Shown: piece by piece, positions 1 to 36,395 of the stretch
Position numbering within the stretch: position 1 is the first letter of the stretch
Layout: each line of letters begins with the position of its first letter
Source: Cetorhinus maximus
Lineage: Eukaryota
Reading direction: 5' to 3'
Assembly: GCF_964194155.1 (NCBI RefSeq)
Contig: NC_135880.1
Location: 166,532,001-166,596,000, forward strand
DNA: 64,000 nt
Notes under the pieces: model-generated
Told to the model about the DNA's origin: nothing
The model's input: only the letters and a program-made list of their open reading frames with translations
The model's database searches: none
Program-made: the position numbers and the translations under genes

Positions 1-1370
1 ATGCACCTCCTCAGAGTGGATCAGCTGCCTGCCCCTTGCTTCCCAGCCGGAACTGGGAAGCAAGGCTTCCTGATTCACTCAGAATTTTTGTCCATTTAAC
101 ATCCATAGTGCCCATTACCTGCTCCAATCCCACCTGCTCATCCATATTAAAACTTTCCAGTTGGTTTCAGGACATGAAAGTGCAAATAAAGATAAATAAA
201 GCCACAAAAATGCAAACATTCCTTTGGATTTTATAAATAATAGCATTGAGTACAAGAACAAATAATAATAAATTTCTACTAGCATTATTTATGCCACAGA
301 GTACTGAGTAGAGTTTTGACTGCCCTCTTATTTCAAGGATGTTAAAGTCATTGAGAATATGCAGCATCGATACAACCGCACAATGATAGTCATAGAAACT
401 ATGAGGAGAGATTTGTGGTACAGAGCCTGCTGCTGATGGAATAGAGAACTGCAGGCATATAACACATTTTTAAAATTAAGGAGAGTTTTTTTCAGAGTGA
501 ACATTTGCTCTGATTAGGGAGCCAGTGATAAGAGAGTCATCAATTTAAAATTGTCAATGAGAATGGGGAGACAGGTTAGAGACTACTGTATAATTTAAGG
601 GGAACAATATATATATGAAACAGAGACACATACAGAGTTATGGGGGGAGTTGTGCACTGGGATTAGCTGGGGACTGTTGGAGCAGAGAGTGGAAGCCGAT
701 GATGATATTGAATGGTGGAGGAGACTGGGCGCCGATCTGGTGTAGATTTGCTCCTGTTTCTTTAAAGTCAGTTTTTGTTTTTGCTCCTGTTTCTTAATGC
801 TCTTATATTCTCATGTAAAGCTGGAATAGACACAGTGGACCAAATAGCATTAATAAGTACCAACTTAAAGCACAATTACCAACAGTCACATCGTTAAAAA
901 GGCCACTAGCAGATTGACAACAAATGGTTAAACCACAATATAGAAAATCAATTTTAGTGATAACAGATTCATAGGGAGGGAAACAGAACAGGGAGAACAA
1001 TGAGAGAGCAATGGGAAAAACAGTCCAAATAAAGGTTTTGCCCAAGAGCTGAGACTAAGATGAAAGCTGAGGAGTCTGCCATGAGGAAATTGAGGGAAAA
1101 AATGTAGTGGAAAATATTTAACGTGAGCTAAACATTTCAAAGAAGTTCGATTAAAACTATGGACAAAAGTGTTAAATGAAAACCAGAAAAAAATGACAAT
1201 GTGTATGAAGGATGAGAGGAGATAAATGTATTGCTGATCGATGCACTTATTCAATCATTCCACAAATTGTAAATGTAATAAGGATCCAGGGGGAGTGTCT
1301 CAACTGAAACGGCGCAAGAATCTCCAAGGGAAAGAGGTGGGACAAGTGATTTAAAAAAAAAGAGCTGCGA

Positions 1371-1405
1371 TGAGTCAGAGCAAAGGAGTAAAAACAGTAT
1401 ATAAA
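1371..1405 (+). promoter_or_regulatory. Relaxin copy A proximal promoter: AP-1 consensus TGAGTCA (1371-1377) and TATA box TATATAAA (1398-1405)
   Basis: Motifs read directly, about 110-145 bp upstream of the ATG, and conserved in copy B. Function is inferred. Confidence 0.6.
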
Positions 1406-1514
1406 GGGAGAGAGATCAGGCATACAGAAAACCACAGGGAGAGAGTCAGAGCAATATAGACATCTCACCAAAAGCCTGAGTACCAGTGAGGGAGGGAAAC
1501 ACTCGTGAGCTGAG

Positions 1515-1698
1515 ATGAAGTGTCTAGTGTGTGTCCTGGTAATCAACCTGCTCCTCACCTCCTTTCCCACTCCTATCTTATCCCTGTCTTTAAGGAGTGC
1601 GGAATCGACAATCAAATTGTGCGGTCGGGAGTTCATCCGAGCCATCATCTATACCTGTGGGGGTTCTCGTTGGAAGAGGCTCCTCGATAACCAGAACG
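1515..1698 (+). CDS. RLN: Relaxin copy A, coding exon 1 (signal peptide, B chain, start of C peptide)
   Basis: MKCLVCVLVINLLLTSFPTPILS-LSLRSAESTIKLCGREFIRAIIYTCGGSRW-KR: hydrophobic signal peptide, CG-x10-C B-chain pattern, relaxin RxxxRxxI cassette and dibasic site. Phase-1 donor G|GTGAGT at 1698/1699. Confidence 0.95.
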
Positions 1699-4319
1699 GT
1701 GAGTATTCAAAAAACAATCTCCCTTTGCTATGCCCCTGTCCAGGAAGTTGGCCGTTTTAGCATCATTGCAATCGAGATGTCTTAATGCTATTTATCGAGT
1801 CTCTCATTGAGTTAATAATAGTGATACTAGTTAGGCTATTGCAACTGGAATCATCTTATTTATCTAACGGACCCAATCTTCAAAATGACAGCGAGTATGA
1901 AAATAGCGAATGAGAAAATGTTTATGCCAATTTTATTTGCGAATGGCTGTCCCTCTTGTGGGGACAATGTACCTGTTATAAGCATATTATTAACATATCT
2001 CATGATGTAAAGAGTGTGTGGACTGCTGCCGTGTGGACAAGGGTGAGTACACATGCTGGAAACACAGAAACAATGCTGGTAACTTCTAAAAGACAAGTTA
2101 ACCTGAGGCTTGTTATCAGCACAGTTACTGTCAGGAGGGGACAGCTGACTTTCAATAGCTGCCTGGCCTGATATTCATTTCCAGGACTGTCAGTTCTTAT
2201 TTCAGATTCTACAGCATTGATGAGGGCTTTCTGGGTGGGGAGAGTTGGGTGCAGTCCTGTCAGTCAGCAGTGACTGTTTATTTGGAGTCACATCATTTAC
2301 CACAGAGCAAGGTTTCCTTGTTCATGGTGCAGGACTTTTCCTGGGTAAATCAATCAGCAAACGTCCTGATCACTTTATAGTGGAATCTGCTAGTGTTTTG
2401 ACATGATAGTGGCATATATTAGTTTAGTGTGAACTTCATTTAGTAAATTCTACACATTTCCGATAAACATTTTAAAATAACAAAGCCTTATTGTTGCTTC
2501 ACATTGTCACTATACTGCAGCTACTACCCACAGGATCGAACGCGGGAAGTGTGATGCGAAACTGAAGGCCAGAATTGGACCGCTGACTTTGAAGTAATGT
2601 CAGCAGATAAAATTCTGACAGCAAGGGTGACTCATTGCCAATACTGAAAAGATCCAATTCTCAGTTTGAGGAGTCATAGAGTACACTGCTAGGACCTGGT
2701 GAAATTCCACCTGACAGAGTTATACCACACCTGGAGTGCAGCTCAAACCTTCCAGGAATGGTTTCATAGCATGAAAGGAATGAAGCCATTCGTCCATCAT
2801 GCGTGCGCTGGCTCTTTGAAAGAGTCCCTTCCCACTCCCATATGTAAACCTCTACGCTACATCAATTGTCTCACACCTGTTGCCTTTGATATACTGGAGA
2901 TTTGGATGGGTCACCCAACTCCTGAGTTATACTTCCAGTTTCAAGGTGCTGTGTATCTATGTGTCTCTACAGATTCACAGAATGGTTACAGCACCGAAGA
3001 AGACACATTCAAAGTGTGAAAATAATACAGTTAAAGACAGATCTGTAATTCGAAAGAGGAATCTGAATGGCCAATAGTGTGGAGATGTTAATATAAAATG
3101 GTATAAACTTGTAAACCACTGCTTTATTGCGCTAACAATTCCCCTTTCAGGCAGTGGGAGGAGAGGTGGGAAATGCTAGGAGAATAGTTCTATGATTAAG
3201 CTGCTGGTAGAACAGTGAGTGTACGCATGTAGAAAGGTGGAAAGAGAATATCACCCACCTGACAACATTCCAGCATGTCAGCCCTGAACATTGAGAATGG
3301 TGACTGATAATGCAATCCCTGATCCATAGTGATTACAATGCAGCAAATTTAATATTGGTAATTATCAATGTTCTACTTCCATCAAACAGCACTGGCATCA
3401 CCACAGATGTTGTCAGACCTGGTGAGTTTTTCCAAAATTTTCTGTTTTTATTTCAGATTTCCAGCATCTGCAGAATTTTGCTTTTAGCACTGGGATGGTA
3501 TCAGTTTATCTAAGTTCTTTTCTGCTTTATTTTCTTTCCCATTCAGGATCCTGGCAATAATAGGAAGGAATGGTTTGAGATATTTGAAGGACTAGGCTGA
3601 AAAAAGGCAACAAACTGGATTGGAAAATTTGTTGAGACAAAGAAATTTCTGGTATAGATCCAGAAGCTGAAGTGCACGACCTGAATGCCAGGATTAGTGA
3701 CTGACTCCCATTCAGCAGGCAGCGACTAGAAACAGTTTGACTGTATCTAATGCAGTAAAAAAAAGCAGAATTTTCACCTGTCAAGCAGGGGTTCAAACCT
3801 TTTAAATCAAAAGTACAAATACAAAGTTCCCATTGGCAGGGGTGGGGATAGTCAGGGAATGATGAGGAGCAAAGAAAGGGCTACCTTCTAAGATTAAGAA
3901 TATATTTACTTGCCAATAGACTGCAATGTTTATCCAAAGATGTGTTAGAATGGATAGACTCTCTCATGAAGTTGCTCCTCTTGAGAATTGGTGTTCCATT
4001 GACCGGAATTTAACCAATTTTCTATCACAGCTGCAGAGTAACACAATTGTTTAACCAAACATTGATGGTCACTTAGAGATGGTTGTCAATTATTTCTCTG
4101 ACTATACAGCAATGTACATTTAATCGACTATATTTGTGTAGTCAAAATACAATGCAGCGCAATTAAGCAAGTGACTTTTGAGACTCCAAGGGCCATTGCT
4201 CTGCCCTAGTCAGAGGAGAGGAGGAGATGGCCATCTACTACCAGGACCGAGTGAACAATATAACTTCAATTTCATTAATCTGGTACATAGTCACAGGTGC
4301 AATTGTATTCCTGTTTTAG

Positions 4320-4666
4320 ATCCCTTCCAGACCTCAGCTGATAAAGACGACTTCAAGGAGATGGACAGCATGAAGAATCTTCAGAGAATGTTTGGCAATG
4401 ACAGGAACCAAGAAGTTGAGCTATCTTTTGTGGAGCAAGCGATCGACGAGTATTACAACCAGCACAATCAGATACCGGAGGATTTCATTGAGTACCTCCG
4501 CCAGATTGATGGAGGCAGCAATAACGACCCCGCATCTGCATTATCACAGATGCAGCATCTACCCTGGGCCAGATCCTTCAGGAAGAAAAGGGCAACAAAA
4601 CCAGGATTGTCAAGCAAATGCTGCTATAACGGCTGCACCAAAAAAGATATCAGCGTTCTTTGCTGA
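4320..4666 (+). CDS. RLN: Relaxin copy A, coding exon 2 (C peptide, RKKR site, A chain ATKPGLSSKCCYNGCTKKDISVLC)
   Basis: Acceptor ctgttttAG|AT is in frame with exon 1 (G+AT = Asp). A chain has the CC-x3-C-x8-C pattern. Spliced CDS is 531 nt, giving a 176-aa preprohormone. Confidence 0.95.
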
Positions 4667-4849
4667 AAACTATACATCTCTATAGATTATTCTATACACA
4701 TGGACTCTGCTTCAGTGAGATTTTAAACCATGTAGTCTATTAAACATCTCACAAACATGGAATAAGGCAAACGTAATTTACCTGTAACTTCTCGTATGGT
4801 CTATGTGACAGGCTTGTGTTCTTCATGCTGAATCTCTTCAAACCAATTA

Positions 4850-4855
4850 AATAAA
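4850..4855 (+). terminator. Probable polyadenylation signal of relaxin copy A
   Basis: AATAAA about 185 nt after the stop, followed by a GT/T-rich tract near 4895-4908. Confidence 0.6.
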
Positions 4856-5499
4856 ATGCAGCTGTAAAGGTTTCAACTCAATTTCTCAAGACAATTGTTT
4901 TTTTTTGTGAATAGTTTATTTAATTCATTCAAAATATTGAAACTTATTTCCCACTGAACACTGCCCACTAACACCTATGCACAAACTCTAAAAATGAGAT
5001 TCTAAAACTATCTAATCTTGGCAAATTTAGTGTGTATTTATGAATCCAGATTTAACATTTAACATAAGTGAAACCATATTAGCTGGAACAGTAAAGTATA
5101 ATTTGTAATGACTTCCTCCTGATAGGCAAGATCTGATTCAGGTGCTCCTCCTTTACAACAACAATAGCTCGGATTTATATAGCACCTTTAATAAATTTAA
5201 AGGCATCATCAAACAACATGCTAAATGGGTTTAACTATTATTTAGCCACAAAGGTGCTCCTGTGTGAGAGGAACAATACAAAATATAAGCTAAAAACAAT
5301 CATGTTATTAATTTCCAATGCATCCAATAATGCTGAACCCAATGAAGGCACTACAATTATCAGATACGCGTTTTCTAAAGCAAGATAAAATTATATAGGC
5401 TGAAAGCAGGTTTCATCACAAAAGCTTAATGCTCAGACTAAAATTAAAGCTTTGTTGTAGCATGATAGGGCGATTAAACTTATTATTCATATTCAGCAA

Positions 5500-5760
5500 A
5501 TTCTCATGTAAACACGAAGAAAGACCTGAAAAATCGGGGCTGTGTTTAGAACAGCTGAGTAAGTGTGATTTGATAAAGGTGTATGAAATTATGAAAGGAT
5601 ACAACACAATAGATGAAACAACAGTTGATCTGTTCTGATTGAGAGATCTAGAATAAGGAAGCATAGCAATGGGAATAAAATGGAGTTTAGCACAGGGTAT
5701 AGGATAATGTTTTTTGCACAGTGTGTTACAAGATTGTGGAATGCACTACCAAAGTAACAA
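5500..5760 (+). mobile_element. Old CR1 LINE 3' fragment
   Basis: Degenerate ERL..LGL..LE..R.DLIKVYKIMKG motif (ORF 5429..5638). Confidence 0.6.
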
Positions 5761-5829
5761 CACCCAGCTCTACCTTACCTCCACCTCTTATGACCCCTTC
5801 ACTGTCTCTAACTTGTCACACTGTAAATT

Positions 5830-6340
5830 TCTTTCAAGTATTAAGAAAGCCGACACCATTGTCTTTGGTCACTGCCACAAACTCTAGGCCAAAGTCAACA
5901 TCTTGCTTCCTGGCAAATGTTGCGGATTGAACAACACCTTGGCGGTGTATCTAGCCCCGAGATGAGATTCTGACCGGATGTCTTTTCTAACACCAAAACT
6001 GCATAGGTCCAATACCGTAACAACGACCTCTACCCCTGCCTCAGCTATTTGCTGCAGAAACTCTCATCCATGTTATAGTTACCTTAGACCTGACTCCCCA
6101 GTGTTCTCCTGCCTGGTCCCTTCTTCCACTCTCCATAAACTTCAGCTCGTCCATGTTCTTCTGCCTGCATCCTAATTTGAACCAAGTCCCGTTTACCAAA
6201 TACCACTGTCCTTGCGACCCTACATTGACTCCATTTGCAGCAAGGCCTTCATTTTAAAATCCACATCCTAGTTTTCGAACCTCTTCATGATCTCGTCGAT
6301 CCCTATCTCTGTAACCTCCTCCAGCCCTACGACCCTCTGA
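5830..6340 (+). mobile_element. L2-type LINE 3' fragment (degenerate)
   Basis: Resembles the L2-like pieces at 38460-38790, 48600-49200 and 50400-50700 (e.g. cctacattgactcc...ttttaaaat, atctctgtaacctcctccagcc). Confidence 0.55.
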
Positions 6341-6829
6341 GAGTAAGCTGAAATTTCCATTGGTCTGGTACTCTCACTGTATCATACCCCAAAATAGCAC
6401 AAACATTTCTGTTGGCAGAGAAATTATTTTTCACTGACAACAGGAACTTATTTTCATACAGTGCCTAAAGGCACCACAGTATTGCAAGTGCTTCACAATG
6501 ACATGCATTCCTGAGTAGAATTAGGAGGGAAAATTGAGGAAAGAACTGAAAGCATGTTTGATGAGGTAGATTTCTGGGATGTTTTTCAAAGCGGAGAAAG
6601 AGTTTCAGAGTTTGGACCCAGGTAGGAGAATGGAGAGTGTGAGCAAGGTGAATAGGATAGAATTAAAACAAACAATGTGAGACCACTTCCAAAAGCTTGC
6701 ACTTCAGTCCATATAGAAAGCCATAATTTAAAAGCACCTACTTAAGTTTTAAATACGACAATACAAAAATTGTCTGCCTGATTGATAATGAGGAAGAAAG
6801 TTGTAGTTTGGAGATTATCAGGAACTAGG

Positions 6830-9800
6830 AACTAAATTAAAGAACAGGTCCTTAAGGGTTATAATCTCTGGATTACTACCCGAGCCACGTGCAAATTGGC
6901 AGAGGGACGCGAGAATAAGGAAAGTAAACACATGGCTAAAGGAGTGGTGCGGGAAAGAGGGGTTCCATTTCGTGGGGCACTGGCATCAGTATTGGAACAG
7001 GAGGGATCTGTACCGTTGGGACGGTCTCCACCTGAACCAATCTGGGACCAATGTTCTAGCGAAAAGGGTAAATAGGTTGGTCAACAGGACTTTAAAATAG
7101 AAATTGGAGGGGGGAGAGAAGGGTAAAACTCCAAGAAGTATGACTAATGGGAAACAAAGCAGCAGGTTAGTGTGTGGAGGGGTGGATTCAACTTCATGGA
7201 AAATTATGAAAAAACTGAAAAGAAAAGAGAGCCCAGGAGAGGCTATTAAAGTCTCCAGAACACAAAATAGGACAGAGTGTTTGGAAAGGGCTAGGAATCT
7301 AACTTCAAGCACAGCAGATAAAGGGACAACAATGAGAAAGGGGACGGGAAATACAGAACTGAAGGCGTTGTATCTGAATGCACACAATATACAAAATAAG
7401 GTAAATGAGCTTGTGGCGCAGATTGAAATTGGCAGGTATGATGTGGTGGGCATTACGGAGACATGGCTGCAAGGGGATCAGGACTGGGAGCTAAATATCC
7501 AAGGATAGACATCCTATAGAAAGGATAGGCAGGTTGGCAGATGGGGTGGAGTTGCTTTGTTAGTAAGAAATGAAATTAAATCGATAGCAAGAAATGATGT
7601 TGGGTCAGATGATGTAGAATCTGTGTGGGTAGAGTTGAGAAACTGCAAAGGTAATAAAAACATAATGGGAGTTATATACAGGCCTCCGAACAGTAGTCAG
7701 GATGTGGGGCACAAGATACACCAGGAGATAGAAAAGGTGTGTAAGAAAGGCAAGGTTACAGTGATCATGGGGGATTTCAATATGCAGGTAGACTGGGAAA
7801 ATCAGGTTGGTAGTGGATCCCAAGAAAAGGAACTTGTGGAATGTCTACGAGATGGCTTTTTGGAGCAGCTTGTGGTGGAGCCCACTAGGGAACAGGCAAT
7901 TCTAGATTTAGTGATGTGTAATGAGGCAGATTTGATAAGGGAGCTTAAGGTGAAGGAACCCTTAGGAGGAAGTGACCATAATATGTTAGAATTTGCCCTG
8001 CAATTTGAGAGGAAAAACCTGGAATCAGATGTAACAGTGTTACAGTTGAATAAAGACAACTACAGAGGCATGAGTGAGGAGCTGGCCAGAATTGACTGGG
8101 AGATGAGCCTAGCAGGAAAGACAGTGGAACAGCAATGGCAGGAGTTTCTGGGAGTAATTTGGGAGACACAGCAAAAATTCATCCCTAGGAAGAAGAAGCA
8201 TACTAAAGGGAAGACGAGGCAACCATGGCTGACAAGGGAAGTCAGGGACAGCATAAAAAATAAAGAGAAAGCATACAATGCGGCGAAGAGCAGTGGGAAA
8301 CCAGGGGATTGGGAAGCCTACAAAGACCAACAGAGGACAACTAAAAAAGAAATAAGGAGGGAGAAGATTAAATATGAGGGTAAACTAGCCAGTAATATAA
8401 AAGAAGATTGCAAGAGTTTTTTTAGATATATAAAGGGTAAGAGAGAGGCAAAAGTGGACATTGGGCCGCTGGAAAATGACCCTGGAGAAGTAGTAGTGGG
8501 GAACAAAGAAATGGCGGAGGAACTGATTAGTTACTTAGTGTCAGCCTTCACAGTGGAAGACACGAGTAGCATTCCCAAAGTTCAAGAGAGTCAGAGGGCA
8601 GAAGTGAGTATGGTGGCCATTACCAAGGAGAAGGTGCTAGGAAAACTGAAAGTTCTGAAGGTTGATAAATCACCTGGACCAGATGGATTACACCCCAGAG
8701 TTCTGAAGGAGATAGCTGAAGAGAGAAGGCAGTCAGGCAAAAAATGGGAAATTACAGGCCGATTAGCCTGATGTCGGTCGTTGGTAAGATTTTAGAGTCC
8801 ATTATTAAGGACGAGATTTCAGAATACTTGGAAGTGCATGGTAAAATCGGGCAAAGTCTGCTTGGTTTCATCAAGGGGAGGTCATGCCTGACAAATCTGT
8901 TAGAATTCTTTGAGGAGGTAACAAGTAGGTTAGACAAAGGCCAGCCAATGGATGTTATCTACTTGGACTTCCAGAAGGCCTTTGACAAGGTGCCACACAG
9001 GAGGCTGCTCAGTAAGATAAGAGCCCATGGTGTTAGAGGCAAGGTACTAGCATGGATAGAAGATTGGCTGTCTGGCAGGAGGCAGAGAGTGGGGATAAGG
9101 GGGTCCTTCTCAGGATGGCGGCCAGTGACTAGTGTAGTTCCGCAGGGGTCAGTGTTGGGACCACAACTTTTCACTTTATACATTAATGATCTAGATGAAG
9201 GAACTGAGGGCATCCTGGCTAAGTTTGCAGATGATACAAAGATAGGTGGATGGACAGATAGTATTGAGGAGGTGGGGAGGCTGCAGAAGGATTTGAACAG
9301 GTTAGGAGAATGGGCAAAGAAGTGGCAGATGGAGTACAACGTGGGGAAGTGTGTGGTCATGCACTTTGGTAGGAAGAATAGAGGCATGGACTATTTTCCA
9401 AAATGGGGAGAGAATTCAGAAATCTGGAGTGCAAAGTGTCTTGGGAGTCCTAGTCCAAGATTCTCTTAATGTTAACTTGTAGGTTGAGTTGGTAGTTAGG
9501 AAGGCAAATGCAATGTTGGCATATATTTCGAGAGGACTAGAATATAAAAGCAGGGATGTGCTGCTGAGGCTTTATAAGGCTCTGGTCAGACCACATTTAG
9601 AATATTGTGAGCAATTTTGGGCCCCGTATCTCAGGAAGGATGTGCTGGCCCTTGAGAGGGTCCAGATGAGATTCACGAGAACGATCCCAGGAATGAAAGG
9701 CTTAACATATGAGGAACGTTTGAGGACCCTGGGTCTATACTCGATGGAGTTTAGAAGGATAAGGGGGGATCTGATTGAAACTTACAGAATACTGAAAGGC

Positions 9801-10149
9801 CTGGATAGAGTGGACGTGGGGAAGATGTTTCCATTAGTAGGAGAGACTAGGACCCGAGGGCACAGCCTCAGAGTAAAGGGAAGACCTTTTAGAACAGAGA
9901 TGAGGAGAAACTTCTTTAGCCAGAGAGTGGTGAATCTATGGAATTCATTGCCACAGAATGCTGTGGAGGCCAGGTCATTGAGTGATTTAAGACCGAGATA
10001 GATAGGTCTTGATTGGTAAGGGGATCAAAGGTTATGGGGAGAAGGCGGGAGAATGGGGTTGAGAAACTTATCAGCCGTGATTGAATGACGGAGCAGACTC
10101 AATGGGCCGATTGGCCTAATTTCTGCTCCTATGTCTTATGGTCTTATGG
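6830..10149 (+). mobile_element. Young 5'-truncated CR1 LINE in the palindrome spacer: end of ORF1 (SGNH esterase), ORF2 APE endonuclease + RT, disrupted
   Basis: ORF1 tail IISGLLP...DGLHLN. ORF2 motifs YLNA, GITETWL, GDFN, SDH, YLDFQKAFDKVPH, PQGSVLGP and FADD. Lesions: stop at 7506-7508, an internal deletion near 8722 relative to the 55.4-57.7 kb copy, and a frameshift near 9400. 3' tail (tcttatgg)n. Confidence 0.95.
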
Positions 10150-10795
10150 ATTGCTGAAAGATATCAATGGACTAGTTCAAGTGAGCAGAAACGTGGCAAA
10201 TATAATTTAATCCAAAGCAGCATGAGGGGCTCTTCATCCTTTGAGGCAAAGATGTCCATGTTCATCATCTGGAGTGTTTGGTAGGGATCCCGTTGGTACG
10301 TTGGTGACTGCTAAGGCCGATCTGCACCCAGAAGGCTCTGCTGAAAATGATAGCTGGAATCCAATGGTTAAACTATGATGAGAGATTAAACAAACTAGGG
10401 AGGTTGTACTCCATGGAATTTAGAAGGTTAAGGGGTGATTTTATTAAAGTTCTCAAGATATTGAGGGGAGTAGATAGAGCAGTTTGTGAGAAACTATCCC
10501 CACTAGTTGGGAAGCCTAGGCCTAGGGGGCATAATCAAAAATTTAGAGCCAGGTCTTCTAGGAGTGTAAAGGATGGTGGAGCTTTGGACCTCTATTCTGC
10601 AAATGGCAACTGAAGCTATTCTAATTGTTAATTTTAAAACTGAGATCGATAGATTTTTTGCTGGTCAAAGGTATTAAGGGATATAGGGCAAAGGCAAGTA
10701 TATGGAGTTAGGTTATTGATCACCCTAACCATTAAATAGCAGAATGGGGTTAAGGGGCTAAATGGCCTATTATTGATCTTATGTTCCTACATTCC
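10150..10795 (+). mobile_element. Older CR1 LINE 3' fragment(s)
   Basis: ORF 10347..10613 ERLNKLG.LYSMEFRRLRGD; CR1-type 3'UTR ggggctaaatggccta. Confidence 0.75.
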
Positions 10796-11144
10796 TAACG
10801 TGAATTCACTGACCTTGACCATTCTTAATGATATTTGAACTCCTTGACACTAGCCTCATAACTGTGACCGTGCAGCTATCTGCTTCCCTGCCTCCCCTCC
10901 CTAAATAGGACGGAATTCATGCATCACATTCCCCATAAACAGAATGAAACAGGAAGAGACTGCAGTAGACTTTGCCTGCATTATCTACCTCAGATTCCAA
11001 GGCCATAGAATGGACTCACATTGCATTTCACACTCCTTATCACCAGTCTGACATATTTCTCTTCTGAAAGGGATACCACTCCCTAAATATAGCTTGTTTG
11101 AGGCCGTAGGCTGTCATGTAGAGTTGTGGCTGGTTTCTTGGTTT

Positions 11145-11491
11145 TCAGCAAAGAACGCTGATATCTTTTTTGGTGCAGCCGTAAAAGCAGCATTTGTTTG
11201 ACAACCCTGGTGATGTTGTCCTTTTCTTCCTGAAGGATCTGGCCCAGGGTAGGTGCTGCATCCGTGATGATGCAGATGCGGGGTTGTTATTGCTGCCTCC
11301 ATAAATCTGGCGGAGGTACTCAATGAAATCCTCCGGTATCTGATTTTGCTGGTTGTAATACTCGTCGATCACTTGCTCCACAAAAGATGGCTCAACTTCT
11401 TGGTTCCTGTCAATGCCAAACATTCTCTGAAGATTCCTCATGCTGTCCATCTCCTTGAAGTTGTCTTTATCAGCTGAGGTCTGGAAGGGAT
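11145..11491 (-). CDS. RLN: Relaxin copy B, coding exon 2 (C peptide, RKKR, A chain TTSPGLSNKCCFYGCTKKDISVLC)
   Basis: 347 nt, same length and acceptor as copy A exon 2. All A-chain cysteines are intact. TGA at 11147-11145. Confidence 0.95.
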
Positions 11492-13666
11492 CTAAAACAG
11501 GAATACAATTCCATCTGTGAATATGTGCCAGATTAATGAAATTGAAGTTATATTGTTCACTCTGTCCTGGTTGTATATGGCCATCTCCTCCTTTCCTCTG
11601 TCTAGGGCAGAGAAACAGCCCTTGGACTTTCAAAAGTCACTTGCTTAATTGGGCTGTATTGTGTTTTGACTACACAAATATAGTCGATTAAATGTACATT
11701 GCTGTATAGTCAGAGAAATAATTGACAGCCATCTCTAAGTGACCATCAATGTTTAGTTAAACAATTGTGTTACACTGCAGTTGCGATAGAAAATTGGTTA
11801 AACTCCAGTCAATGGAACACCAATTCTCAAGAGGAGCAACATCATGAGAGAGTCTATCCATTCAAACACGTGTTTGGATAAACATTGCAGTCTATTGGCA
11901 AGTAAATATTTTCTAAATCTTAGAAGGTAGCCCTTTCTTTGCTCCCCGTCATTCCCTGACTATCCCCACCCCTGCCAATGGGAACTTTCATGTTTGTGGT
12001 TTTGATTTAAAAGGTTTGATCCCCTGCTTGACAGGTGAAAATTCTGCTTTTTTTTTACTGCATTAGATACAGTCAAACTGTTTCTAGTCGCTGCCTGCTG
12101 AATGGGAGTCAGTCACTAATCCTGGCATTCAGGTCGTGCACTTCAGCTTCTGGATCTATACCAGAAATTTCTTTGTCTCAACAAATTTTCCAATCCAGTT
12201 TGTTGCCTTTTTTCAGCCTAGTCCTTCAAATATCTCAATCCATTCCTTCCTATTATTGCCAGAATCCTGAATGGGAAAGAAAATAAAGCAGAAAAGAACT
12301 TAGATGAACTGATGCCATCCCAGTGCTAAAAGCAAAATTCTGCAGATGCCGGAAATCTGAAATAAAAACAGAAAATTTTGGAAAAACTCACCAGGTCTGA
12401 CAACATCTGTGGTGATGTCAGTGCTGTTTGATGGAAGTAGAACATTGATAATTACCAATATTAAATTTGTTGCATTGTAATCACTATGGATCAGGGATTG
12501 CATTATCAGTCACCATTCTCAATGTTCAGGGCTGACATGCTGGAATGTTGTCAGGTGGGTGATATTCTCTTTCCACCTTTCTACATGCGTACACTCACTG
12601 TTCTACCAGCAGCTTAATCATAGAACTATTCTCCTAGCATTTCCCACCGCTCCTCCCACTGCCTCAAAGGGGAATTGTTAGCGCAATAAAGCAGTGGTTT
12701 ACAAGTTTATAGCATTTTATATTAACATCTCCACATTATTGGCCGTTCAGATTCCTGTTTCGAATTACAGATCTGTCTTTAACTGTATTATTTTCACACT
12801 TTGAATGTGTCTTCTTCAGTGCTGTAACCATTCTGTGAATCTGTAGAGACACATAGATACACAGCACCTTGAAACTGGAAATATAACTCAGGAGTTGGGT
12901 GACCCATCCAACTCTCCAGTATATCAAAGGCAACAGGTGTGAGACAATTGATGTAGCGTAGAGGTTTACATATGGGAATGGGAGGGGACACTTTCAAAGA
13001 GCCATCACAAGCATGATGGGCGAATGGCTTCATTCCTTTCGTGCTATGAAACCATCCCTGGAAGGTTTGAGCTGCACTCCAGGTGTGGTATAACTCTGTC
13101 AGGTGGAATTTCACCAGGTCCTAGCAGTGTACTCTATGACTCCTCAAACTGAGAATTGGATCTTTTCAGTATTGGCAATGAGTCACCCTTGCTGTCAGAA
13201 TTTTATCTGCTGACATTACTTCAAAGTCAGCGGTCCAATTCTGGCCTTCGGTTTCGAATCACACTTTCCGGGTTCGATCCTGTGGGTAGTAGCTGCAGTA
13301 TAGTGACAATGTGAAGCAACAATAAGGCTTTGTAATTTTAAAATGTTTATCGGAAAGGTGTAGAATTTACTAATTGAAGTTCACACTAAACTAAAATATG
13401 CCGCTATCATGTCAACACACTCGCAGATTCCACTATAATGTGATCAGGACATTTGCTGATTGATTTACACAGGAAAAGTCCTGCACTATGATCAAGGAAA
13501 CCTTGTTCTTTGGTAAATGATGTGACTCCAAATAAACAGTCACTGCTGACTGACAGGACTGCGCCCAACTCCACCCACCCAGAAAGCCCTCATCAATGCT
13601 GTAGAATCTGAAATAAGAACTGACAGTCCTGGAAATGAATATCAGGCTAGACAGCATTTGAAAGCC

Positions 13667-14433
13667 GAAATACCTGGAAAAACTCAGCAGGTCTAGCAGC
13701 TTCGGCAGAGAAGAGCAAAGTTGACGTTTCGAGTCCTCATGACCCTTCAACAGAACTAAGTAAAAATAGGAAAGTGGTGAAATATAAGCTGGTTTAAGGG
13801 CGTGGGGGTGGGGGGCAGTGTGTGGGGTGGGGGGAGGGTGGGGTTGTTGGGACAAGCAAGCAGTGAAAGGAGGAGATAACCAAAAGGTGTCACAGACAAA
13901 AGGACAAAGAGGTGTTGTAGGCGGTGATATTATCTAAAAGAATGTGCTAATAAAGAGTGGAAAGCAGGACAAGCAAGGTAGCTCTAGTGACAATTGTTTC
14001 CACAATTGTAGATCTTGAACTCCCTCCTCCATCCCCACTCCTTTCCGTTTCTTCTCCCTCCTTTTTGTTTTTTCCAATAATTTATATAGGTTTTTCTTTT
14101 CCTACCTATTTCCATTATTTTTAAATGTATTCCACCCATCGTTTATTTCACCCCACCCCCACTAGAGCTACCTCTTTGTTCTTTTGTCTGTGACATCTTT
14201 TGGTTATCTCCTCCTATCACTGCTTGCTTATCCCTACAACCCCAAGCCCCCCTTCTCCACCACCCCCACTTAAACCAGCTTATATTTCACCCCTTTCCTA
14301 TTTTTACTTAGTTCTGTTGAAGGGTCATGAGGACATTTGCTCTGCTCCGCCGATGCTGCCAGACCTGCTGAGTTTTTCCAGGTATTTCTGTTTTTGTTTT
14401 GGATTTGCAGCATCCGCAGTTTTTTGTTTTTAT
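13667..14433. mobile_element. Fold-back Penelope-like non-autonomous element inserted only in the intron of relaxin copy B; 14-bp TSD
   Basis: AGCATTTGAAAGCC is duplicated at 13653-13666 and 14434-14447; a single diverged copy lies at about 2146-2160 in copy A. About 13667-13990 and 14160-14400 are inverted copies of each other. Hammerhead-like motif present. Confidence 0.85.
13719..13757 (-). ncRNA. Minimal type-I hammerhead-ribozyme-like motif (core variant CUGUUGA)
   Basis: Minus strand reads AGTT-CTGTTGA-A-GGGTC-ATGAG-GACTC-GAAA-CG-TC-AACT: 4-bp stem I, 5-bp stem II, palindromic ACGU stem III, GUC site. A6 is replaced by U, so activity is uncertain. Confidence 0.6.
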
Positions 14434-14892
14434 AGCATTTGAAAGCCAGCTGTCCCCTCCTGACAGTAACTGTGCTGATAACAAGCCTCATGTTAACTTG
14501 TCTTTCAGAAGTTACTTGAGCCGCTCTGTTTCCAGCATTTGTACTCACCCTTGTCCACACGGCAGCAGTCCACACACTCTTTACATCATGAGATATGGTA
14601 ATAATATGGTTATAACAGGTATATTGTCCCCACAAGAGGGACAGCCATTCGCAAATAAAATTGGCATAAACATTTTCTCATTCGCTATTTTCATACTCAC
14701 TGTCATTTTGAAGATTGGGTCCGTTAGATAAATAAAATGATTCCAGTTGCAATAGCCTAACTAGTATCACTATTATTAACTCAATGAGAGACTCGATAAA
14801 TAGCATTAAGACATCTCGATTGCAATGATGCTAAAACGGCCAACTTCCTGGACAGGGGCATAGCAAAGGGAGATTGTTTTTTGAATACTCAC

Positions 14893-15076
14893 CGTTCTGG
14901 TTATCGAGGAGCCTCTTCCAACGAGAACCCCCACAGGTATAGATGATGGCTCGGATGAACTCCCGACCGCACACTTTGATTCCCGGTTCCGCACTCTTTA
15001 AAGACTGGGATAAGATAGGAGTGGGAAAGGAGGTGAGGAGCAGGTTGATTACCAGAACACACACTAGACACTTCAT
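14893..15076 (-). CDS. RLN: Relaxin copy B, coding exon 1 (signal peptide, B chain QSLKSAEPGIKVCGREFIRAIIYTCGGSRW)
   Basis: 184 nt with a G|GTGAGT donor, RxxxRxxI cassette and KR site; same structure as copy A. Confidence 0.95.
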
Positions 15077-15222
15077 CTCAGCTCACGAGTGTTGAGCCTG
15101 GGCTTCTCTGTAAACCTCGCAGTAAGTGTTCCGCTCCCTCACTGGTACTCAGGCTTTTGGTGAGATGTCTATATTGTTTTGACTCTCTCCCTGTGGTCTT
15201 CTGTATGCCTGATCCCTCTCCC

Positions 15223-15257
15223 CTTATATACTGTTTTTACTCCTTTGCTCTGACTCA
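15223..15257 (-). promoter_or_regulatory. Relaxin copy B proximal promoter: TATATAAG (15230-15223) and AP-1 site (15251-15257)
   Basis: Paralogous to 1371-1405, with one base different at the end of the TATA box. Confidence 0.55.
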
Positions 15258-18200
15258 TCGCAGCTCTTTTTTTTTTTAAATCACTTGTCCCACCTCTTTC
15301 CCTTGGAGATTCTTGCGCCGTTTCAGATGAGACACTCCCCCCGGATCCTTATCACATTTATAATTTGTGGAATGATTGAATATGTGCATCGATCAGCAAT
15401 ACATTTATCTCCTCTCATCCTTCATACACTTTGTCATTTTTTTCTGGTTTTCATTTAACACTTTTGTCCATAGTTTTAATCGAACTTCTTTGAAATGTTT
15501 AGCTCATGTTAAATATTTTCCACTACATTTTTTCCCTCAATTTCCTCATTGCAGACTCCTCAGCTTTCATCTTAGTCTCAGCTTTTGGGCTAAACTTTTA
15601 TTCGGACTGTTTTTCCCATTGCTCTCTCATTGTTCTCCCTGTTCTGTTTCCCTCCCTATGAATCTGTTATCACTAAAATTGATTTTCTATATTGTGGTTT
15701 AACCATTTGTTGTCAATCTGCTAGTGGCCTTTTTAACCATGTGACTGTTGGTAAATGTGCTTTAATTGGTACTTATTAATACTATTTGGTCCACTGTGTC
15801 CATTTCAGCTTTACATGAGAATATAAGAGCATTAAGAAACAGGAGCAAGAACAAAAACTGACTTTTAAGAAACAGGAGCAGTTCTACACCAGATTGGCAC
15901 CCAGTCTCCTCCACCATTCAATACAATCATGACCGATCTTTGGCTTCAACTCTCTGCTCCAACAGTCCCCAGCTAATCCCAGTGCACAACTCCCCCCATA
16001 ACTCTGTATGTGTCTCTGTTTCATATATATATATATATCACATTGTTCCCCTTAAATTATACAGTGGTCTCTAACCTGTCTCTCCATTCTCATTGACAAT
16101 TTTAAAATGATGACTCTCTTATCACTAATCAGAGCAAATGTTCACTCTAAAAAAAACTCTCCTTAATTTTAAAAATGTGTTATATGCCTGCAGTTCTCTA
16201 TTCCATCAGCAGCAGGCTCTGTACCACAAATCTCTCCTCATAGTTTCTATGCCTGTCATTGTGCGGTTGTATCGATGCTGCATATTCTCAATGACTTTAA
16301 CATCCTTGAAATAAGAGGGCAGTCAAAACTCTACTCAGTACTCTGTGACATAAATAATGCTAGTAGAAATTTATTATTATTTGTTCTTGTACTCAATGCT
16401 ATTTATAAAATCCGAAGGACTGTTGGCATTTTTGTGGCTTTATTTATCTTTATTTGCACTTTCGTGTCCTGAAACCTACTGGAAAGTTTTAATATGGATG
16501 AGCAGGTGGGATTGGAGCAGGTAATGGGCACTATGGATGTTAAATGGACAAAAATTCTGAGTGAATCAGGAAGCCTTGCTTCCCAGTTCCGGCTGGGAAG
16601 CAAGGGGCAGGCAGCTGATCCACTCTGAGGAGGTGCATTGGCATTTTCAACATGTTAATGAGGCTGGCAGTCTCATATTTGCAGGTTTGGCTGTGGCCGA
16701 CTGGGTTTCCCAGGCCTTGGGAATGCAAATGCTGCACCAAGGCGAGGATGGCCACATGGAGAAGGCAAGTGCCTTTGCAGCTGTCCTTGTGGGCCAGGAG
16801 GAGCAGAAATGCTTCCTCTCGCCCCCACAGTCACCCGCCCATTAGAATCCTCAAATGCCACACCCGGTCCCCTGGAATTGGACCTCCCTAGAATCAAAGT
16901 TAGACACCCTGGAAAGAGGGCTTGGGCCTAACTGGTCTTCACAGTGACCCCTGCATTCCTGGAAGGCAAGCCTGTCAGTCAGGCTGATTTCTGGGCAGGA
17001 AATCTGTCTGGACTGATTTGTTGCACCCATCAAGACCAGAAGTTAAAACTCCAAAGCATATGGAAAAACCCCGACTTCCAGATTTCATATATGCTAAAGG
17101 ATTTCACCAATCCTCCCCTTCCTCCCCAGCCCACTCCCAATTCATTGCCAAGTAGAACGTGCACCTCCTAGGTCTCATTGTGAAGTGGGGTGAATTAAAT
17201 TGAGAATTTAATGAAACATTTGCGAAAACTCCTGTAGCTATGGCACAAACACCTCATTGAGGCTAAATTCCACATTCCTGGTCTTTCTCACTCCACTGAG
17301 TCACGTGATTTGAGGTTAAACTCTCACTTGTCCACTCAAGCATAAAACGCAGTTTACAAAACAATTGGAAATTACATTCATTCAAAGAACAGTTGATCAC
17401 ATTGTTGTGTAACTAATTGGATTTCAACAGCCCACAAATAAGGCACCAAATAAACAGGTTTAAGCAACACAAATGAAGCAACTTACACTTCAAATGCAAT
17501 GAAATAAACAAAAGATGGTGGAAAAGGTGTCAAGGTAAGTTGAAAACTGAAATCATCGAGGGCACATTCTCACCCTTTCTGCTGTTCTCCCCACTATCTC
17601 CAGGAGTTATTTGAGGCCTTTCCTGGTGAGACAAGTGGCAAAAATTCAATCCTCCTAAATAGATGAGGTGGAGGTTCAGGCTGGCTTGGGGTCTTTCTGC
17701 TCAAACACACAATGCTCACACAGCCCGAAAAAGGGATATTATTAAGGGGAAAAGGGTTGGCTGTGAGCCCTGCTTCAGTTAATGCCAGGCTATGAATGTA
17801 ATCATCCGGAATAAGACAAAGGCCTTGTTTGCAAGTGGGCAACCATTCTGGAGAGGGATGGGAATTATTGATCCATTGTAAGAGGCAGGAAGGTGTTTGT
17901 AGATACGGTAAATCCTAAGAAAGCGCACTAGATGGTATGATTGATGAGAGTAGAGGGTATGGCAGTTGCCATTGCTATTCATAGAAAGGCAGTGGAAGGC
18001 ACCACAATGGCCCTAATGGAGAATGTTGAGAGGTACCGGGGGCCTTGATTATGGAGGAAACAATCCTTGGGTAGCAGAAGGAGAGAGGGCAAGCAGAGCA
18101 AATGCAGAGGGGGTAAAGATCGGGTGGTATTTGTAGGAGGCAGAGGAGATAGAACTTGGAATGATGGGGTGAAGGGAGACAGGTGAGTGGAGCTCAGGAA

Positions 18201-33038: not shown

Positions 33039-33160
33039 TTATATTTGACTGAAAAATATACTCCGGGCCCTCCTGGCTTTCTCGATACTTTCGAAGGTTG
33101 GCACTCCCTTTGGCATGTCAAGTAGGCTTCGCTCTGTATCAATTATGTTCTCCGCCTCAT
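33039..33160 (-). CDS. PLGRKT: PLGRKT last coding exon (DEAENIIDTERSLLDMPKGVPTFESIEKARRARSIFFSQI*)
   Basis: Acceptor atcttccAG|AT, 122 nt, phase-compatible with the upstream exon. Motif EAE.I...E...L..P.G..TFESIEKAR is characteristic of PLGRKT/C9orf46. Confidence 0.93.
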
Positions 33161-33699
33161 CTGGAAGATAAAATGAAACCCAATAACCATCCATTTAACT
33201 GTCAAGTGTGTATTATCGAATAGCTGAAAATATTAAGTGCACACTTGTATGTCAGGAAACTGATGCTAAATGTGAAAGTCCACACACTGCCTTTTTTGAT
33301 AACTTATGCAGTGTTCCCTACTTATATAGAATATGATGCGAATATAACATCAAGGTTATTTCTGTATGCCCAGGGACGACACTATATTTTTTTAATAAGG
33401 CATAAGTCAGTCAATGCAAAATACTGAGGATTCATTATTATATCTTTAAGGCAAAACCCCTAACTATATCTGGCTGAAAAGCAAACCAACTGCAGAAAAC
33501 TGCTGGGCACGATGCGAGTGGCAGATCTTAAAATTGGGAGTTGACATTGACTGATAAAAATGAAAGAAGTGGGTCTGAATAAGTTAAAGTATGTTTTTAG
33601 TAGAAGAGGAAAAGACAACATGCACTGAGCAATAGAATGCCATCAGGGGCCCTTATAAGGCCAAAACTGTGCTAAGAGCTGTGCTAAAAATTAAGGCCT

Positions 33700-33911
33700 T
33701 GTAATGACTCAATGGAGTAGACAGGATTCAACAAGAAACAGATAAACTTTATTACAGAGAGCTTTTCAGGTGCTGCATGCTCGATCAGGACTCTCATCAG
33801 GAAGCCCCATCCCCTGGATTGCCCGCATTTAGGGCTCATTAATCAGAGCCTCCCAGAAAATCACGTGACCCCTGGTAGGCAGCAGGAGAGGCTATACCTT
33901 CAGTGACTACA
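33700..33911 (-). mobile_element. Short solo LTR
   Basis: TGTAAT...GACTACA termini; 5-bp TSD GGCCT/GACCT (one mismatch); AATAAA on the minus strand near 33748. Confidence 0.6.
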
Positions 33912-34209
33912 GACCTTAATGAACTTTCTCTTCACAGAAATTCTAAAGTAGTAATGGGACAGGAACAGGAACAGGTTATTCAGCCTATTCATGGCGTGTG
34001 TGAATAGAGTCAAATGAATTACAACTTGTTCTCTGGAACCACGTTTACATCTTTGTTGGTTTTGTTTCCTTCGTTGGCATTTTTCAAAACGAGGAGAATT
34101 TTAAATCTAGATTTTTAGAGGTGATCAATTTTTTTCAAATGGAATGACTGCAAGTGCTTAAATCTAACTGACCTTGTGAGATGTAAAATATCTTGTTCCC
34201 ACTTTATCT

Positions 34210-35460
34210 TGTGGGACAAGTGGAGTCCCACAGGGGTCTGTGCTGGGGCCTCAACTTTTTATAATTTATAATCAATGACTTAGATGAGGGGAGTGAAGGG
34301 ATGGTAGCTAAATTTACAGATGACACAAAAATATGTAGGAAAGTATGTTGTGAAGAGGACATAAGGAGGTTGCAGGGAGATATAGATAGTGAGTAGCAAA
34401 ACTCTGGAAGCTGGAGTATAATGTAGGAAAATATGATGTTGTTCACTTTGGCAGGAAGAATAAAAAAGCAGTGTTGCTTAAACAGATAACAGCTGCAGAA
34501 TTCCGAAGTGCAGATGGATCTAAGCGTTCTAGTGCATGAGTCACGAAAAGTTAGTATGCAAGTACAGCAAGAAAATAAGAAGCCTAATGGAATGCTATCC
34601 TTTATCATGAGAGGAATTGAACATAAAAGTAAGGATAAAAGCAAAATACTGCGGATGCTGGAAATCTGAAACAAAAACAGAAAATGCTGGAAAAACCCAG
34701 CAGGTCTAACAGCATCGGTGGAGAGAAAAACAGAGTGAACGTTTTGAGTCCATGTGACAAGAAGAGTCATACGGACTCGAAACTTTAACTCTGTTTTTCT
34801 CTCCACACATGCTGGTAGACCTGCTGAGCTTTTCCAGCATTTTCTGTTTTATAAAAGTAAGGATGTTATGCTTCAGTTATACAGGGCATTGATGAGACCA
34901 CATCTCGAATACTGTGTGCAGTTTTGGTCTCCTTATTTAAGGAAGGATGTAAATGCGTTGGAGGCTGTTTAGAGGGGGGTTTCTTAGATTGATACCTGGA
35001 ATGAGTGGGTTGTCTCATGAGGAAAAGTTAGACAAACTGGGCTTGTTTCCATTGGTATTTAGAAGAGTGAGGGGTGACTTGATTGAAGTATATAAGGTCC
35101 TGAACTGTATTGACAAGGTGAACGTGGAAAGGATGTTTCCTCTAGTGGGTGAGTCCAGAACTAGGGGCCACTGTTTTAAAATTAGAAGTCGCCCTTTTAG
35201 GACAGAGATGAGGAGAATTTTTTCTCTCAGAGGTTTGTGCGACTTTGGAACTCCCTGCCTCAGAAGGCGGTAGTTGAGGGGTCATTGAATATTTTTAAGG
35301 CAGAGATAGATTATTCTTAGGCAAGGGAATCAAAGGTTATCGGGGGTAGATGGGAACATGGAATTCAAGACACAAACAGATCAGCCCTGATCTTATTGAA
35401 TGGTTGAGCAGGCTTGAGGGGCTGGAAAGCCTACTTCTGCTCCTATTTTGTATGTTGTAT
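34210..35460 (+). mobile_element. CR1 LINE 3' part (RT to 3'UTR), interrupted by a fold-back element
   Basis: GVPQGSVLGP, INDLD, FTDD, RPHLEYCVQFWSP and RGDLIEVYK motifs; (tatg)n tail. Confidence 0.9.
34637..34850. mobile_element. 214-bp fold-back Penelope-like element with 14-bp TSD
   Basis: ATAAAAGTAAGGAT at 34623-34636 and 34851-34864. The two halves are inverted copies of the same end sequence as the 13667-14433 element, joined inside the hammerhead motif. Confidence 0.85.
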
Positions 35461-36395
35461 GTATGTTCATGTGGGAATGCAGTAATTTCAGATTTTAAAC
35501 ATAATCAAAGTCAGTATTCACCACCTCACCCATTTTATATTTTAGCCCATTCTTCAGCAAAAATTAAGCTGTTGCTTGCATTGTTAACCACATCTGGGTG
35601 TCTTTGTACAGTAGGCACATACCATTCATCTAACAGCCTTGTTCTACCACTGATTTAGATCTGAATCTTCACTCCATGTCCCCATTTTGGTTCCATAACC
35701 CTTAATAGCCAAACCTAACAAAAATATATTAAGCACAGTTTTTACATTTTAACTGACCTGCAGCCTTAATGGCTTTTGGGGGAATGGGTTCCAGGTTTCC
35801 ACTACACTTAGTGTGAAGAAGTGCCTCATGACATCAGCCTTGAAACGCCTAGCTCTAATTTTAAAGTGGAAACAGTTTCACTCTATCAACATTTGATTAG
35901 AGAATACCAAAAAACTATGTGCATCGACATCAATCTAGACTGACGTTAGTGTTGCATGGAGTCAGTTATGTTTATATGTGTGCATATATGTATATAAACA
36001 GACACACAATAATCCAGCCTAAATAATCCTACCTTTTTACATAGCGAGTGGTTAGAATATGGAATGCACCGCATGAGAGTGTAGCGGAGGCAAATTCAAT
36101 CATGGCTTTCAAAAGGGAATTGGATAATTATCTGAAGAGAAAAATTTGTCGGGCTACGAGAAAACGTGATGGAATTGGACTGGCTGAGAGCTAGCACGGA
36201 CATGACGGGCTGATTGGCCTTCTGTGCTGTAACCATTCTATGCTACTCTTCTCAGAAGTTGCTCTTGAATTGGGCTAAAATTATGAGAGCAAGTTTAGTC
36301 AAAAGTCCATGATCACTTTTTGAATGCCAAGTGCAGATAACTCCCTCCCTTGACTAATCCTATAAAGTCACAGATGTACTCTTGCTGTATCTTAC

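What the first reader, a model, noticed from the sequence alone, without database searches (positions are those of the whole stretch)
4664..11147. Palindrome homology ends 4 nt after the stop codon, so the paralogs have unrelated 3'UTRs
Seen: both copies read TGA AAAC and then diverge completely (A: tatacatctc..., B: caagaaaccag...). Copy A has AATAAA at 4850 with a GT-rich downstream element. On copy B's strand the first AATAAA I could find is about 700 nt away (10440-10445), inside an antisense CR1 fragment. Inference: one copy acquired a new 3' end, possibly using a TE-derived poly(A) site. A breakpoint this close to the stop suggests that only a duplicate preserving the last A-chain Cys was retained.
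Basis: partly seen in the sequence, partly recalled or inferred. Interest (0 to 1): 0.7.

Follow-up and report, generated by a model that had tools for sequence, protein, structure and literature searches.

The report
Shark relaxin duplicate lost its tail
A basking-shark hormone gene (relaxin) exists as two back-to-back copies, and one was cut four bases after its stop codon, so it now runs into old neighbouring DNA read backwards; this is a real but fairly ordinary result of an inverted duplication, and where that copy's message ends is untested.

Summary
Two intact relaxin genes, identical to basking-shark RefSeq XP_078414669.1 (A) and XP_078414682.1 (B), lie in inverted arms about 96% alike. 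Likeness stops at 4670/11141, four bases after TGA, and the flanks show no hidden homology.

Reads of a related shark (organism B) polarise it. That shark holds A's flank and, separately, B's flank as single-copy DNA about 94% alike; its listed contigs leave the window's sequence at 11141-11142 on both sides. So A kept the old UTR, and B's flank is not a newly gained element but the far end of the gene's old downstream DNA, read antisense.

Best mechanism (about 0.6): a fold-back or template-switch inverted duplication with a single-copy spacer. Main rival (about 0.3): a later one-sided deletion.

The poly(A) idea is untested. The AATAAA lies in an old CR1 but is private to this copy, and one occurs in 36% of 700-nt stretches. 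The Cys-retention argument explains only why the break is not upstream of the stop. There are borderline signs of arm-to-arm conversion and a flipped spacer. New member of a known kind; modest interest.

The parts
1..4670 (+). Arm A of the inverted duplication (runs off the left end of the window)
1515..1698 (+). Relaxin copy A, coding exon 1 (signal peptide, B chain), GT donor
   Evidence: spliced product 176/176 identical to P0014 = XP_078414669.1
4320..4666 (+). Relaxin copy A, coding exon 2 (C peptide, A chain, final Cys, TGA)
4667..4910 (+). Inferred ancestral 3' UTR of A: ATTAAA/AATAAA 4846-4855, CA about 20-25 nt on, U-rich tract about 4895-4909
   Evidence: sequence; A's flank is held by organism B; use as poly(A) site inferred
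4671..11140 (.). Spacer, not mirrored: 6470 bp, about 3.1 kb without the young CR1
6805..10149 (+). Young, near full-length CR1 LINE (92-96% like a copy at 55.4-57.7 kb); appears to split an older CR1
   Evidence: the split is read by eye from translations, tblastn did not report the left piece
10150..10800 (+). Old decayed CR1 fragment, antisense to copy B
   Evidence: 58% DNA identity over 466 nt to the young CR1; repeat-level depth
10440..10445 (-). First AATAAA on B's strand (+699), with CA 25 nt and a GU/U-rich run 43-52 nt further on; candidate poly(A) signal, private to this CR1 copy
   Evidence: use not tested
10800..11140 (-). B's proximal 3' flank: old single-copy DNA at the far end of the spacer, read antisense
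   Evidence: organism B contigs 10755-11061 (18 other letters in 307) and 10755-11142
11141..11142 (.). Junction; organism B's contigs from the two sides overlap by 2 bases here (possible microhomology)
   Evidence: records 10, 11, 27; X1 record 2 crosses it with 30 letters on the arm side
11145..11491 (-). Relaxin copy B, coding exon 2
   Evidence: spliced product 176/176 identical to P0002 = XP_078414682.1
14893..15076 (-). Relaxin copy B, coding exon 1
11141..16638 (-). Arm B (its true outer end is unknown because arm A leaves the window)
33039..40590 (-). Three exons of a DUF2368 gene (recalled as PLGRKT), co-oriented with and upstream of copy B; landmark only
   Evidence: the name PLGRKT is recalled, no call gave it

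Best explanation
An ancestral relaxin gene had A's UTR followed by the spacer DNA. A fold-back or template-switch event copied the gene, with at least 1.5 kb of upstream DNA, in inverted orientation. It joined the far end of the downstream DNA (11142) to a point 4 nt past the stop codon, at about 2 bases of microhomology. The DNA between the two points stayed single-copy and is the spacer. One copy (B) therefore lacks the UTR and poly(A) signal and is transcribed into the antisense strand of old downstream DNA. If expressed, it most likely ends at the chance AATAAA at +699 (about 0.45; weak earlier sites 0.25; poor 3' processing 0.3). The arms have since exchanged sequence patchily, and the spacer may have flipped by a crossover in the intron. 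SHOWN: junction, unrelated flanks, both flanks present in a relative, two intact ORFs. INFERRED: A's UTR adjoins exon 2 in the relative (0.9); junction made at duplication (0.6); conversion, flip and poly(A) use.
For: Organism B (runs X7, X15) holds B's flank as single-copy DNA (depth 11.7 against 10.1 for exon 2 in X7). One contig runs to 11142 and goes on for 33 unlike letters; exon-2 contigs in both runs stop matching at 11141 and go on for 188 and 61 unlike letters. It holds 0.26-0.29 of the words of 4320-5250, while exon 2 alone can give at most 0.135 if its exon 2 is the white-shark one, so A's flank is there too. Only one exon-2 type is counted at 11185-11364 in each run, and one white-shark protein is listed. 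A spacer of 3.1-6.5 kb and a 2-base overlap fit human fold-back junctions (median spacer 3428 bp; 2-8 bp microhomology; PMC3907307 passages). No mirrored remnant lies in the spacer.
Against: The loose letters were not printed and table 8 was cut (32 rows shown, 8085 not), so adjacency in organism B and absence of a crossing contig hold for listed pieces only. The 2-base overlap comes from alignment ends of single contigs, one with 16 gap letters, and 13% of simulated junctions have 2 or more bases by chance. Protein trees put A with white shark for exon 2 (93/86; AU p=0.052 for A+B) and B with white shark for exon 1 (96/89; 35 columns). Near the junction A-B differences match B-to-organism-B differences (15 vs 17-19 in 268; 21 vs 19 in 279; 13 vs 14 in 202). 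Both hint that the copies are as old as the species split, which would make the junction younger than the duplication. The outer junction lies outside the window. No RNA evidence.
Confidence: 0.58

Rival explanations
1. Later one-sided deletion. The two inverted copies first existed each with the UTR (a fuller palindrome, or an older inverted pair). A deletion in the basking-shark line then removed B's UTR and the DNA between it and 11142. The white-shark line lost, or never had, the second copy.
For: Mosaic trees and 4 sites (31, 35, 96, 155) where white shark shares a derived residue with one copy while the other matches most or all of 7 more distant shark proteins. Inner-arm divergence is 6.0% against 2.9% outside (Fisher p=2e-5). 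Asymmetric central deletions are a known way of stabilising palindromes (PMC8701086 passages). More diverged relaxin-like pieces (86-92%) in X1, X7 and X15 show earlier duplications.
Against: Needs two events, and a separate loss in organism B if the pair is older than the split. Organism B's second-copy pieces are 9-10% from B, further than its main copy (6-7%), so they are not B orthologs. The AU test is borderline, and conversion from older paralogs could give the same mosaic.
Confidence: 0.3
2. Selection placed the break. Losing the old UTR gave B a different message stability or tissue pattern and was favoured, together with changes at the ends of the mature chains. This concerns why the junction was kept and fits either geometry above; its confidence is separate.
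For: 22 replacement against 3 silent differences. pN 0.053 vs non-coding 0.034 (Fisher p=0.052). Changes cluster at codons 24-35 and 153-165, the N-terminal ends of the B and A chains. The break lies 4 nt from the stop.
Against: pN vs pS is not significant (p=0.32). Relaxed constraint or conversion from older paralogs fits as well. No expression data. The closeness of the break is post hoc.
Confidence: 0.2
3. A transposable element inserted right after B's stop codon and supplied the new UTR and poly(A) site.
For: The first AATAAA lies in a CR1 fragment.
Against: The first 340 nt are single-copy in 3 of 3 DNA runs and are present in organism B apart from exon 2. No displaced UTR lies behind it. 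The hexamer is missing in 5 of 5 other aligned CR1 copies.
Confidence: 0.04
4. Assembly artefact (misjoin at 11140/11141).
For: The only crossing contig comes from X1, possibly the assembly's own sample, and has 30 letters on the arm side, one short of the tool's bridging rule.
Against: That 504-nt contig matches 10667-11170 with no difference and ends inside the 42 bases that A and B share, as expected at a branch. The arms differ by 3.5% plus indels and a ~780-bp insertion, unlike a read chimera.
Confidence: 0.03

Closest known systems
Fold-back inverted duplications with a single-copy spacer (PMC3907307, passages)
   Same: Inverted copies around an unduplicated spacer of a few kb; short overlap at the spacer-arm junction.
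   Different: Those are large, terminal, disease-causing human events followed by breakage. This one is interstitial, apparently fixed, and cuts a gene 4 nt after its stop.
Staggered-break inversions with inverted duplication at one breakpoint (PMC1885836, passages)
   Same: Gives exactly this layout in one step if B is the copy in the original place, as its co-orientation with the DUF2368/PLGRKT gene suggests (human orientation recalled).
   Different: Reported duplications are at most about 1.9 kb; here at least 4.7 kb. The second breakpoint is outside the window.
Maize p1/p2 alleles with rearranged 3' ends (PMC3014980, passages)
   Same: [quoted passage not shown]
   Different: There the sites were mapped by 3' RACE and lie 140-545 nt out; here nothing is mapped and the nearest 340 nt are not TE.
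Palindrome arm-to-arm conversion and rare spacer inversion (PMC3723533, passages)
   Same: Patchy arm identity (1 difference in 192 nt where organism B has 9) and a mosaic exon 1/exon 2 signal.
   Different: Human arms are over 99.9% alike; these are 96.5%, so exchange is weak or has stopped.
Local relaxin expansions (human region between INSL6 and PLGRKT, PMC5459885 figure legend; shark paralogs)
   Same: Repeated local duplication: 9 Heptranchias entries on one contig and 2 in each Scyliorhinus species among proteins listed. That human RLN1 and RLN2 differ in 3' UTR is recalled; one search did not find it.
   Different: Inverted arrangement with complete loss of the UTR in one copy.

Membership tests
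Relaxin family, RLN locus | Identity to annotated relaxin-like proteins; RxxxRxxI B-chain motif; six Cys; two coding exons | tested here: met
   176/176 to XP_078414669.1 and XP_078414682.1; motif and Cys intact in both; motif definition recalled
Relaxin family, RLN locus | Pfam Insulin above gathering score | tested here: inconclusive
   Exon 2 alone scored 21.2 and 19.0 bits, cut-off 23; the B chain was not in that query
Relaxin family, RLN locus | Lies next to PLGRKT (RLN ortholog rather than RLN3) | tested here: inconclusive
   DUF2368 exons 18-25 kb from B; DUF2368 = PLGRKT is recalled; RLN-PLGRKT linkage from a figure legend
Fold-back inverted duplication | Single-copy spacer of a few kb between inverted copies | tested here: met
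   6470 bp, about 3.1 kb without the young CR1; no mirror; single-copy depth at its far end
Fold-back inverted duplication | 2-8 bp inverted microhomology at the junction | tested here: inconclusive
   2-base overlap of alignment ends, letters not printed
Fold-back inverted duplication | Junction as old as the duplication; outer junction returns to ancestral DNA | not testable with these tools
   Outer end of arm A lies left of the window; no genome held
Staggered-break inversion | Spacer inverted relative to outgroup gene order | not testable with these tools
   Outgroup contigs are a few hundred bases long; orientation to PLGRKT only recalled from human
TE-exapted poly(A) site | Transcript 3' ends map in the TE | not testable with these tools
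   No RNA holder of this species listed
TE-exapted poly(A) site | Signal supplied by the TE family sequence | tested here: not met
   0 of 5 other aligned CR1 copies carry it
Conversion-maintained palindrome | Arm identity above 99% | tested here: not met
   96.5%
Conversion-maintained palindrome | Tracts homogenised relative to an outgroup | tested here: inconclusive
   Over-dispersed divergence (chi2 45.8, 18 df, p=3e-4); 1 vs 9 differences in 192 nt in 1 of 6 stretches compared

The most novel reading that the evidence does not exclude
A single rearrangement gave a shark reproductive hormone a second, expressed copy with a wholly new 3' UTR built from antisense intergenic and CR1 DNA. Selection kept it and holds the mature-chain ends apart against gene conversion. 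A spacer flip made both genes mosaics of the original and the duplicate, and read-through from B past its weak poly(A) site could fold back on A's exon 2 as double-stranded RNA.
Probability: 0.15. Interest if true: 0.58.

Novelty: new member of a known kind. Interest (0 to 1): 0.3.

Why it matters
It is a clean natural case in which two hormone genes share promoter and nearly all coding sequence but have unrelated 3' ends, so the effect of an instant UTR swap could be read directly from RNA. It also documents recurrent, apparently undescribed turnover of relaxin copies in sharks. Without RNA it stays a well-resolved breakpoint of a known kind.

Tried and rejected
No whole genome is held, so the outer junction and other paralogs could not be read.

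No RNA holder of this species was listed; this says nothing about expression. The RNA-guess run X20 of a third organism covered only exon 2 (11181-11427 and 11434-11492) and so gave no UTR.

Hidden homology between the flanks, in either orientation: none. B's flank as a TE, or as a copy of something elsewhere in the window: rejected.

tblastn did not detect the left piece of the old CR1 at about 6750-6804; that link rests on reading the translations.

Atlas search for the neighbour gene gave only DUF2368 at score 0.78, a lead. Paper searches gave no statement of RLN/PLGRKT orientation or of DUF2368 = PLGRKT. The supplements of PMC2805637, which hold map positions, could not be read and may bear on the synteny claim. 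PMC6143958 (passages) and PMC12702675 (passages) added nothing used here.

Listings from searches showed no paper on this locus; the library lacks most subscription journals. Earlier-findings look-ups were empty.

Donor-like motifs at about +125, +157 and +331 in B's flank were not followed.

Full report
OBSERVATION. The window holds an inverted repeat with arm A at 1-4670 (running off the left end) and arm B at 11141-16638, around a 6470-bp spacer. Over 4649 aligned bases the arms differ at 164 (3.5%), plus 14 indels including about 780 bp inserted in B's intron. Six local alignments of the two flanks, in both orientations and two scoring schemes, all scored within 100 shuffles. The spacer has no inverted self-match at E<=1. 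The poly(A) hexamers are where stated: 4850 on A's strand, and 10445-10440 on B's, 699 nt after the stop and inside a plus-strand CR1 fragment.

WHAT THE GENES ARE. Each arm holds an intact two-exon, 176-residue relaxin. A is identical to XP_078414669.1 and B to XP_078414682.1, both 'relaxin-3-like' of Cetorhinus maximus. A DUF2368 gene with exons near 33.1, 36.4 and 40.5 kb lies on the minus strand, upstream of and co-oriented with B. I recall this family as PLGRKT; no call named it. A figure legend places mammalian RLN genes between INSL6 and PLGRKT (PMC5459885, passage), so this is probably the RLN locus despite the label. The copies differ by 22 replacement and 3 silent changes (pN 0.053, pS 0.027). 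That is not significant against pS (p=0.32) and borderline against non-coding DNA (p=0.052). Among the proteins listed, white shark has one, each Scyliorhinus species two and Heptranchias nine entries.

WHICH FLANK IS OLD. I laid 4 of the 24 listed runs on 10160-12300: X1 (organism A, perhaps the assembly's own sample), X7 and X15 (organism B, DNA) and X20 (organism C, RNA by guess). Organism B's letters at 11193 and 11197 fit the white-shark residues T160 and N161, so it is white-shark-like. In X1 a 504-nt contig matches 10667-11170 without a difference; it has 30 letters on the arm side, one short of the tool's bridging rule. In organism B the flank exists as single-copy DNA: 10755-11061 with 18 other letters in 307 (X7), and 10755-11142 with 33 unlike letters beyond (X15). 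Exon-2 contigs stop matching at 11141 and go on for 188 (X15) and 61 (X7) unlike letters. No listed organism-B piece crosses the junction, but only 32 pieces were shown, 8085 were not, and the loose letters were not printed. Organism B also holds 0.26-0.29 of the sampled words of 4320-5250 (14 runs), whereas exon 2 can supply at most 0.135 given the 10 residue differences to the white-shark protein. So A's flank is present in the relative. That it adjoins exon 2 there is inferred, and fits its A+T-rich make-up (66%), double hexamer and U tract. Conclusion: A kept the ancestral 3' end, B lost it.

WHAT B'S FLANK IS. The first 340 nt are not a transposon: depth is 5-22 against up to thousands in the CR1. 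The CR1 behind it is old (58% DNA identity to young copies). Read by eye, its RT frame begins at about 6750-6804 and resumes at 10150, split by a young CR1 at 6805-10149; tblastn did not report the left piece. This makes the spacer one old block of about 3.1 kb, and B's flank its far end read backwards. The AATAAA is absent at the same spot in 5 of 5 other aligned CR1 copies, and at the window's density one occurs in 36% of 700-nt stretches. Its context is decent (CA 25 nt on, GU/U-rich run 43-52 nt on), so it is the best candidate, but nothing shows that it is used.

MECHANISM. Inverted copies, a single-copy spacer of a few kb and a 2-base overlap match fold-back junctions: human spacers have a median of 3428 bp, and 13 of 21 junctions show 2-8 bp microhomology (PMC3907307, passages). 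If RLN is ancestrally co-oriented with PLGRKT, as I recall for human, the UTR-bearing copy should be the one next to it, yet B is. Two known routes solve this: a staggered-break inversion duplicating one breakpoint (PMC1885836, passages), or a later crossover between the arms that flips the spacer (PMC3723533, passages). Protein trees of 16 shark sequences favour the flip weakly: exon 2 groups A with white shark (93/86; AU p=0.052 for A+B) and exon 1 groups B with white shark (96/89; 35 columns; bootstrap unsettled). Left out of the trees were P0008, the four other full-length-cluster or shortened Heptranchias entries beyond two representatives, and P0019.

AGAINST THE ONE-STEP READING. The same trees, and the uneven arm divergence, hint that the copies are as old as the basking/white shark split. 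Divergence is 6.0% in the inner 920 bp and 2.9% outside. In the six stretches compared, A-B against B-to-organism-B differences were 15 vs 17-19, 21 vs 19, 13 vs 14, 1 vs 9, 10 vs 6 and 8 vs 11. If the pair is that old, the junction, which organism B appears to lack, was made later by deletion, a known way to stabilise palindromes (PMC8701086, passages). Against that, organism B shows no B-like exon 2, and its extra pieces are further from B than its main copy. Older paralogs 86-92% alike exist in both species and could have donated the discordant residues. I put one-step origin at about 0.6 and later deletion at about 0.3.

THE CYS ARGUMENT. Needing the last Cys forbids breaks upstream of the stop; it does not pull them close. 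A break within 5 nt has a chance of 2.5% over the ~200 nt in which UTRs would come out different, or 0.16% over 3.1 kb. These are post hoc figures from a scan that looks for oddities, so chance is adequate and selection for shedding the UTR is possible but unsupported.

KNOWN VERSUS NEW. It works like the maize p1/p2 case, where duplicates diverge just after the stop and recruit poly(A) sites from adjacent, even antisense, transposon DNA (PMC3014980, passages). Listings from searches showed no paper on this shark locus; most subscription journals are not in the library. Verdict: a real junction, correctly spotted, now polarised; a new instance of known processes. Interest 0.3, up to about 0.58 if B proves to be expressed with a functional new UTR.

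Noticed in passing
window 1584-1619 and 4592-4630 (codons 24-35 and 153-165), mirrored in B: 13 of the 25 coding differences cluster at the N-terminal ends of the mature B and A chains, 12 of them replacements, next to a 237-bp identical run; looks like divergence held against conversion, or tracts from older paralogs.
   Followed up: partly
runs X1, X7, X15 laid on 11235-12100: Further relaxin-like copies 86-92% alike exist outside the window in both species, up to three in the basking shark.
   Followed up: no
P0003-P0024: Relaxin is repeatedly duplicated in sharks (9 Heptranchias entries on one contig, 2 in each Scyliorhinus species), with strongly diverged A chains in extra copies; RefSeq labels them relaxin-3-like or INSL5 though this pair sits at what is probably the RLN locus.
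   Followed up: partly
window 13661-14433: About 780-bp insertion in B's intron only, with ~250-bp inverted ends (82%) and a short duplicated target (GCATTTGAAAGC-like); related hairpin at 34674-34850.
   Followed up: partly
window 51422-52012 and 53637-54210: A second young inverted duplication (94%, ~590-bp arms, ~1.6-kb spacer) inside or upstream of the DUF2368 gene; the right arm seems to continue into a transposon-like frame.
   Followed up: no
window 47943-48786: Two adjacent hairpin elements (77% self-complementary), MITE-like.
   Followed up: no
window 22800-24970: Decayed LINE of another kind (Tx1-like by recall) between copy B and the DUF2368 gene.
   Followed up: no
window 4920-4925 and 5192, minus strand: After 10445 and 10211, B's strand has no AATAAA or ATTAAA for about 5 kb, until just before A's UTR; read-through from B would cross the spacer antisense and could reach A's exon 2.
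   Followed up: no
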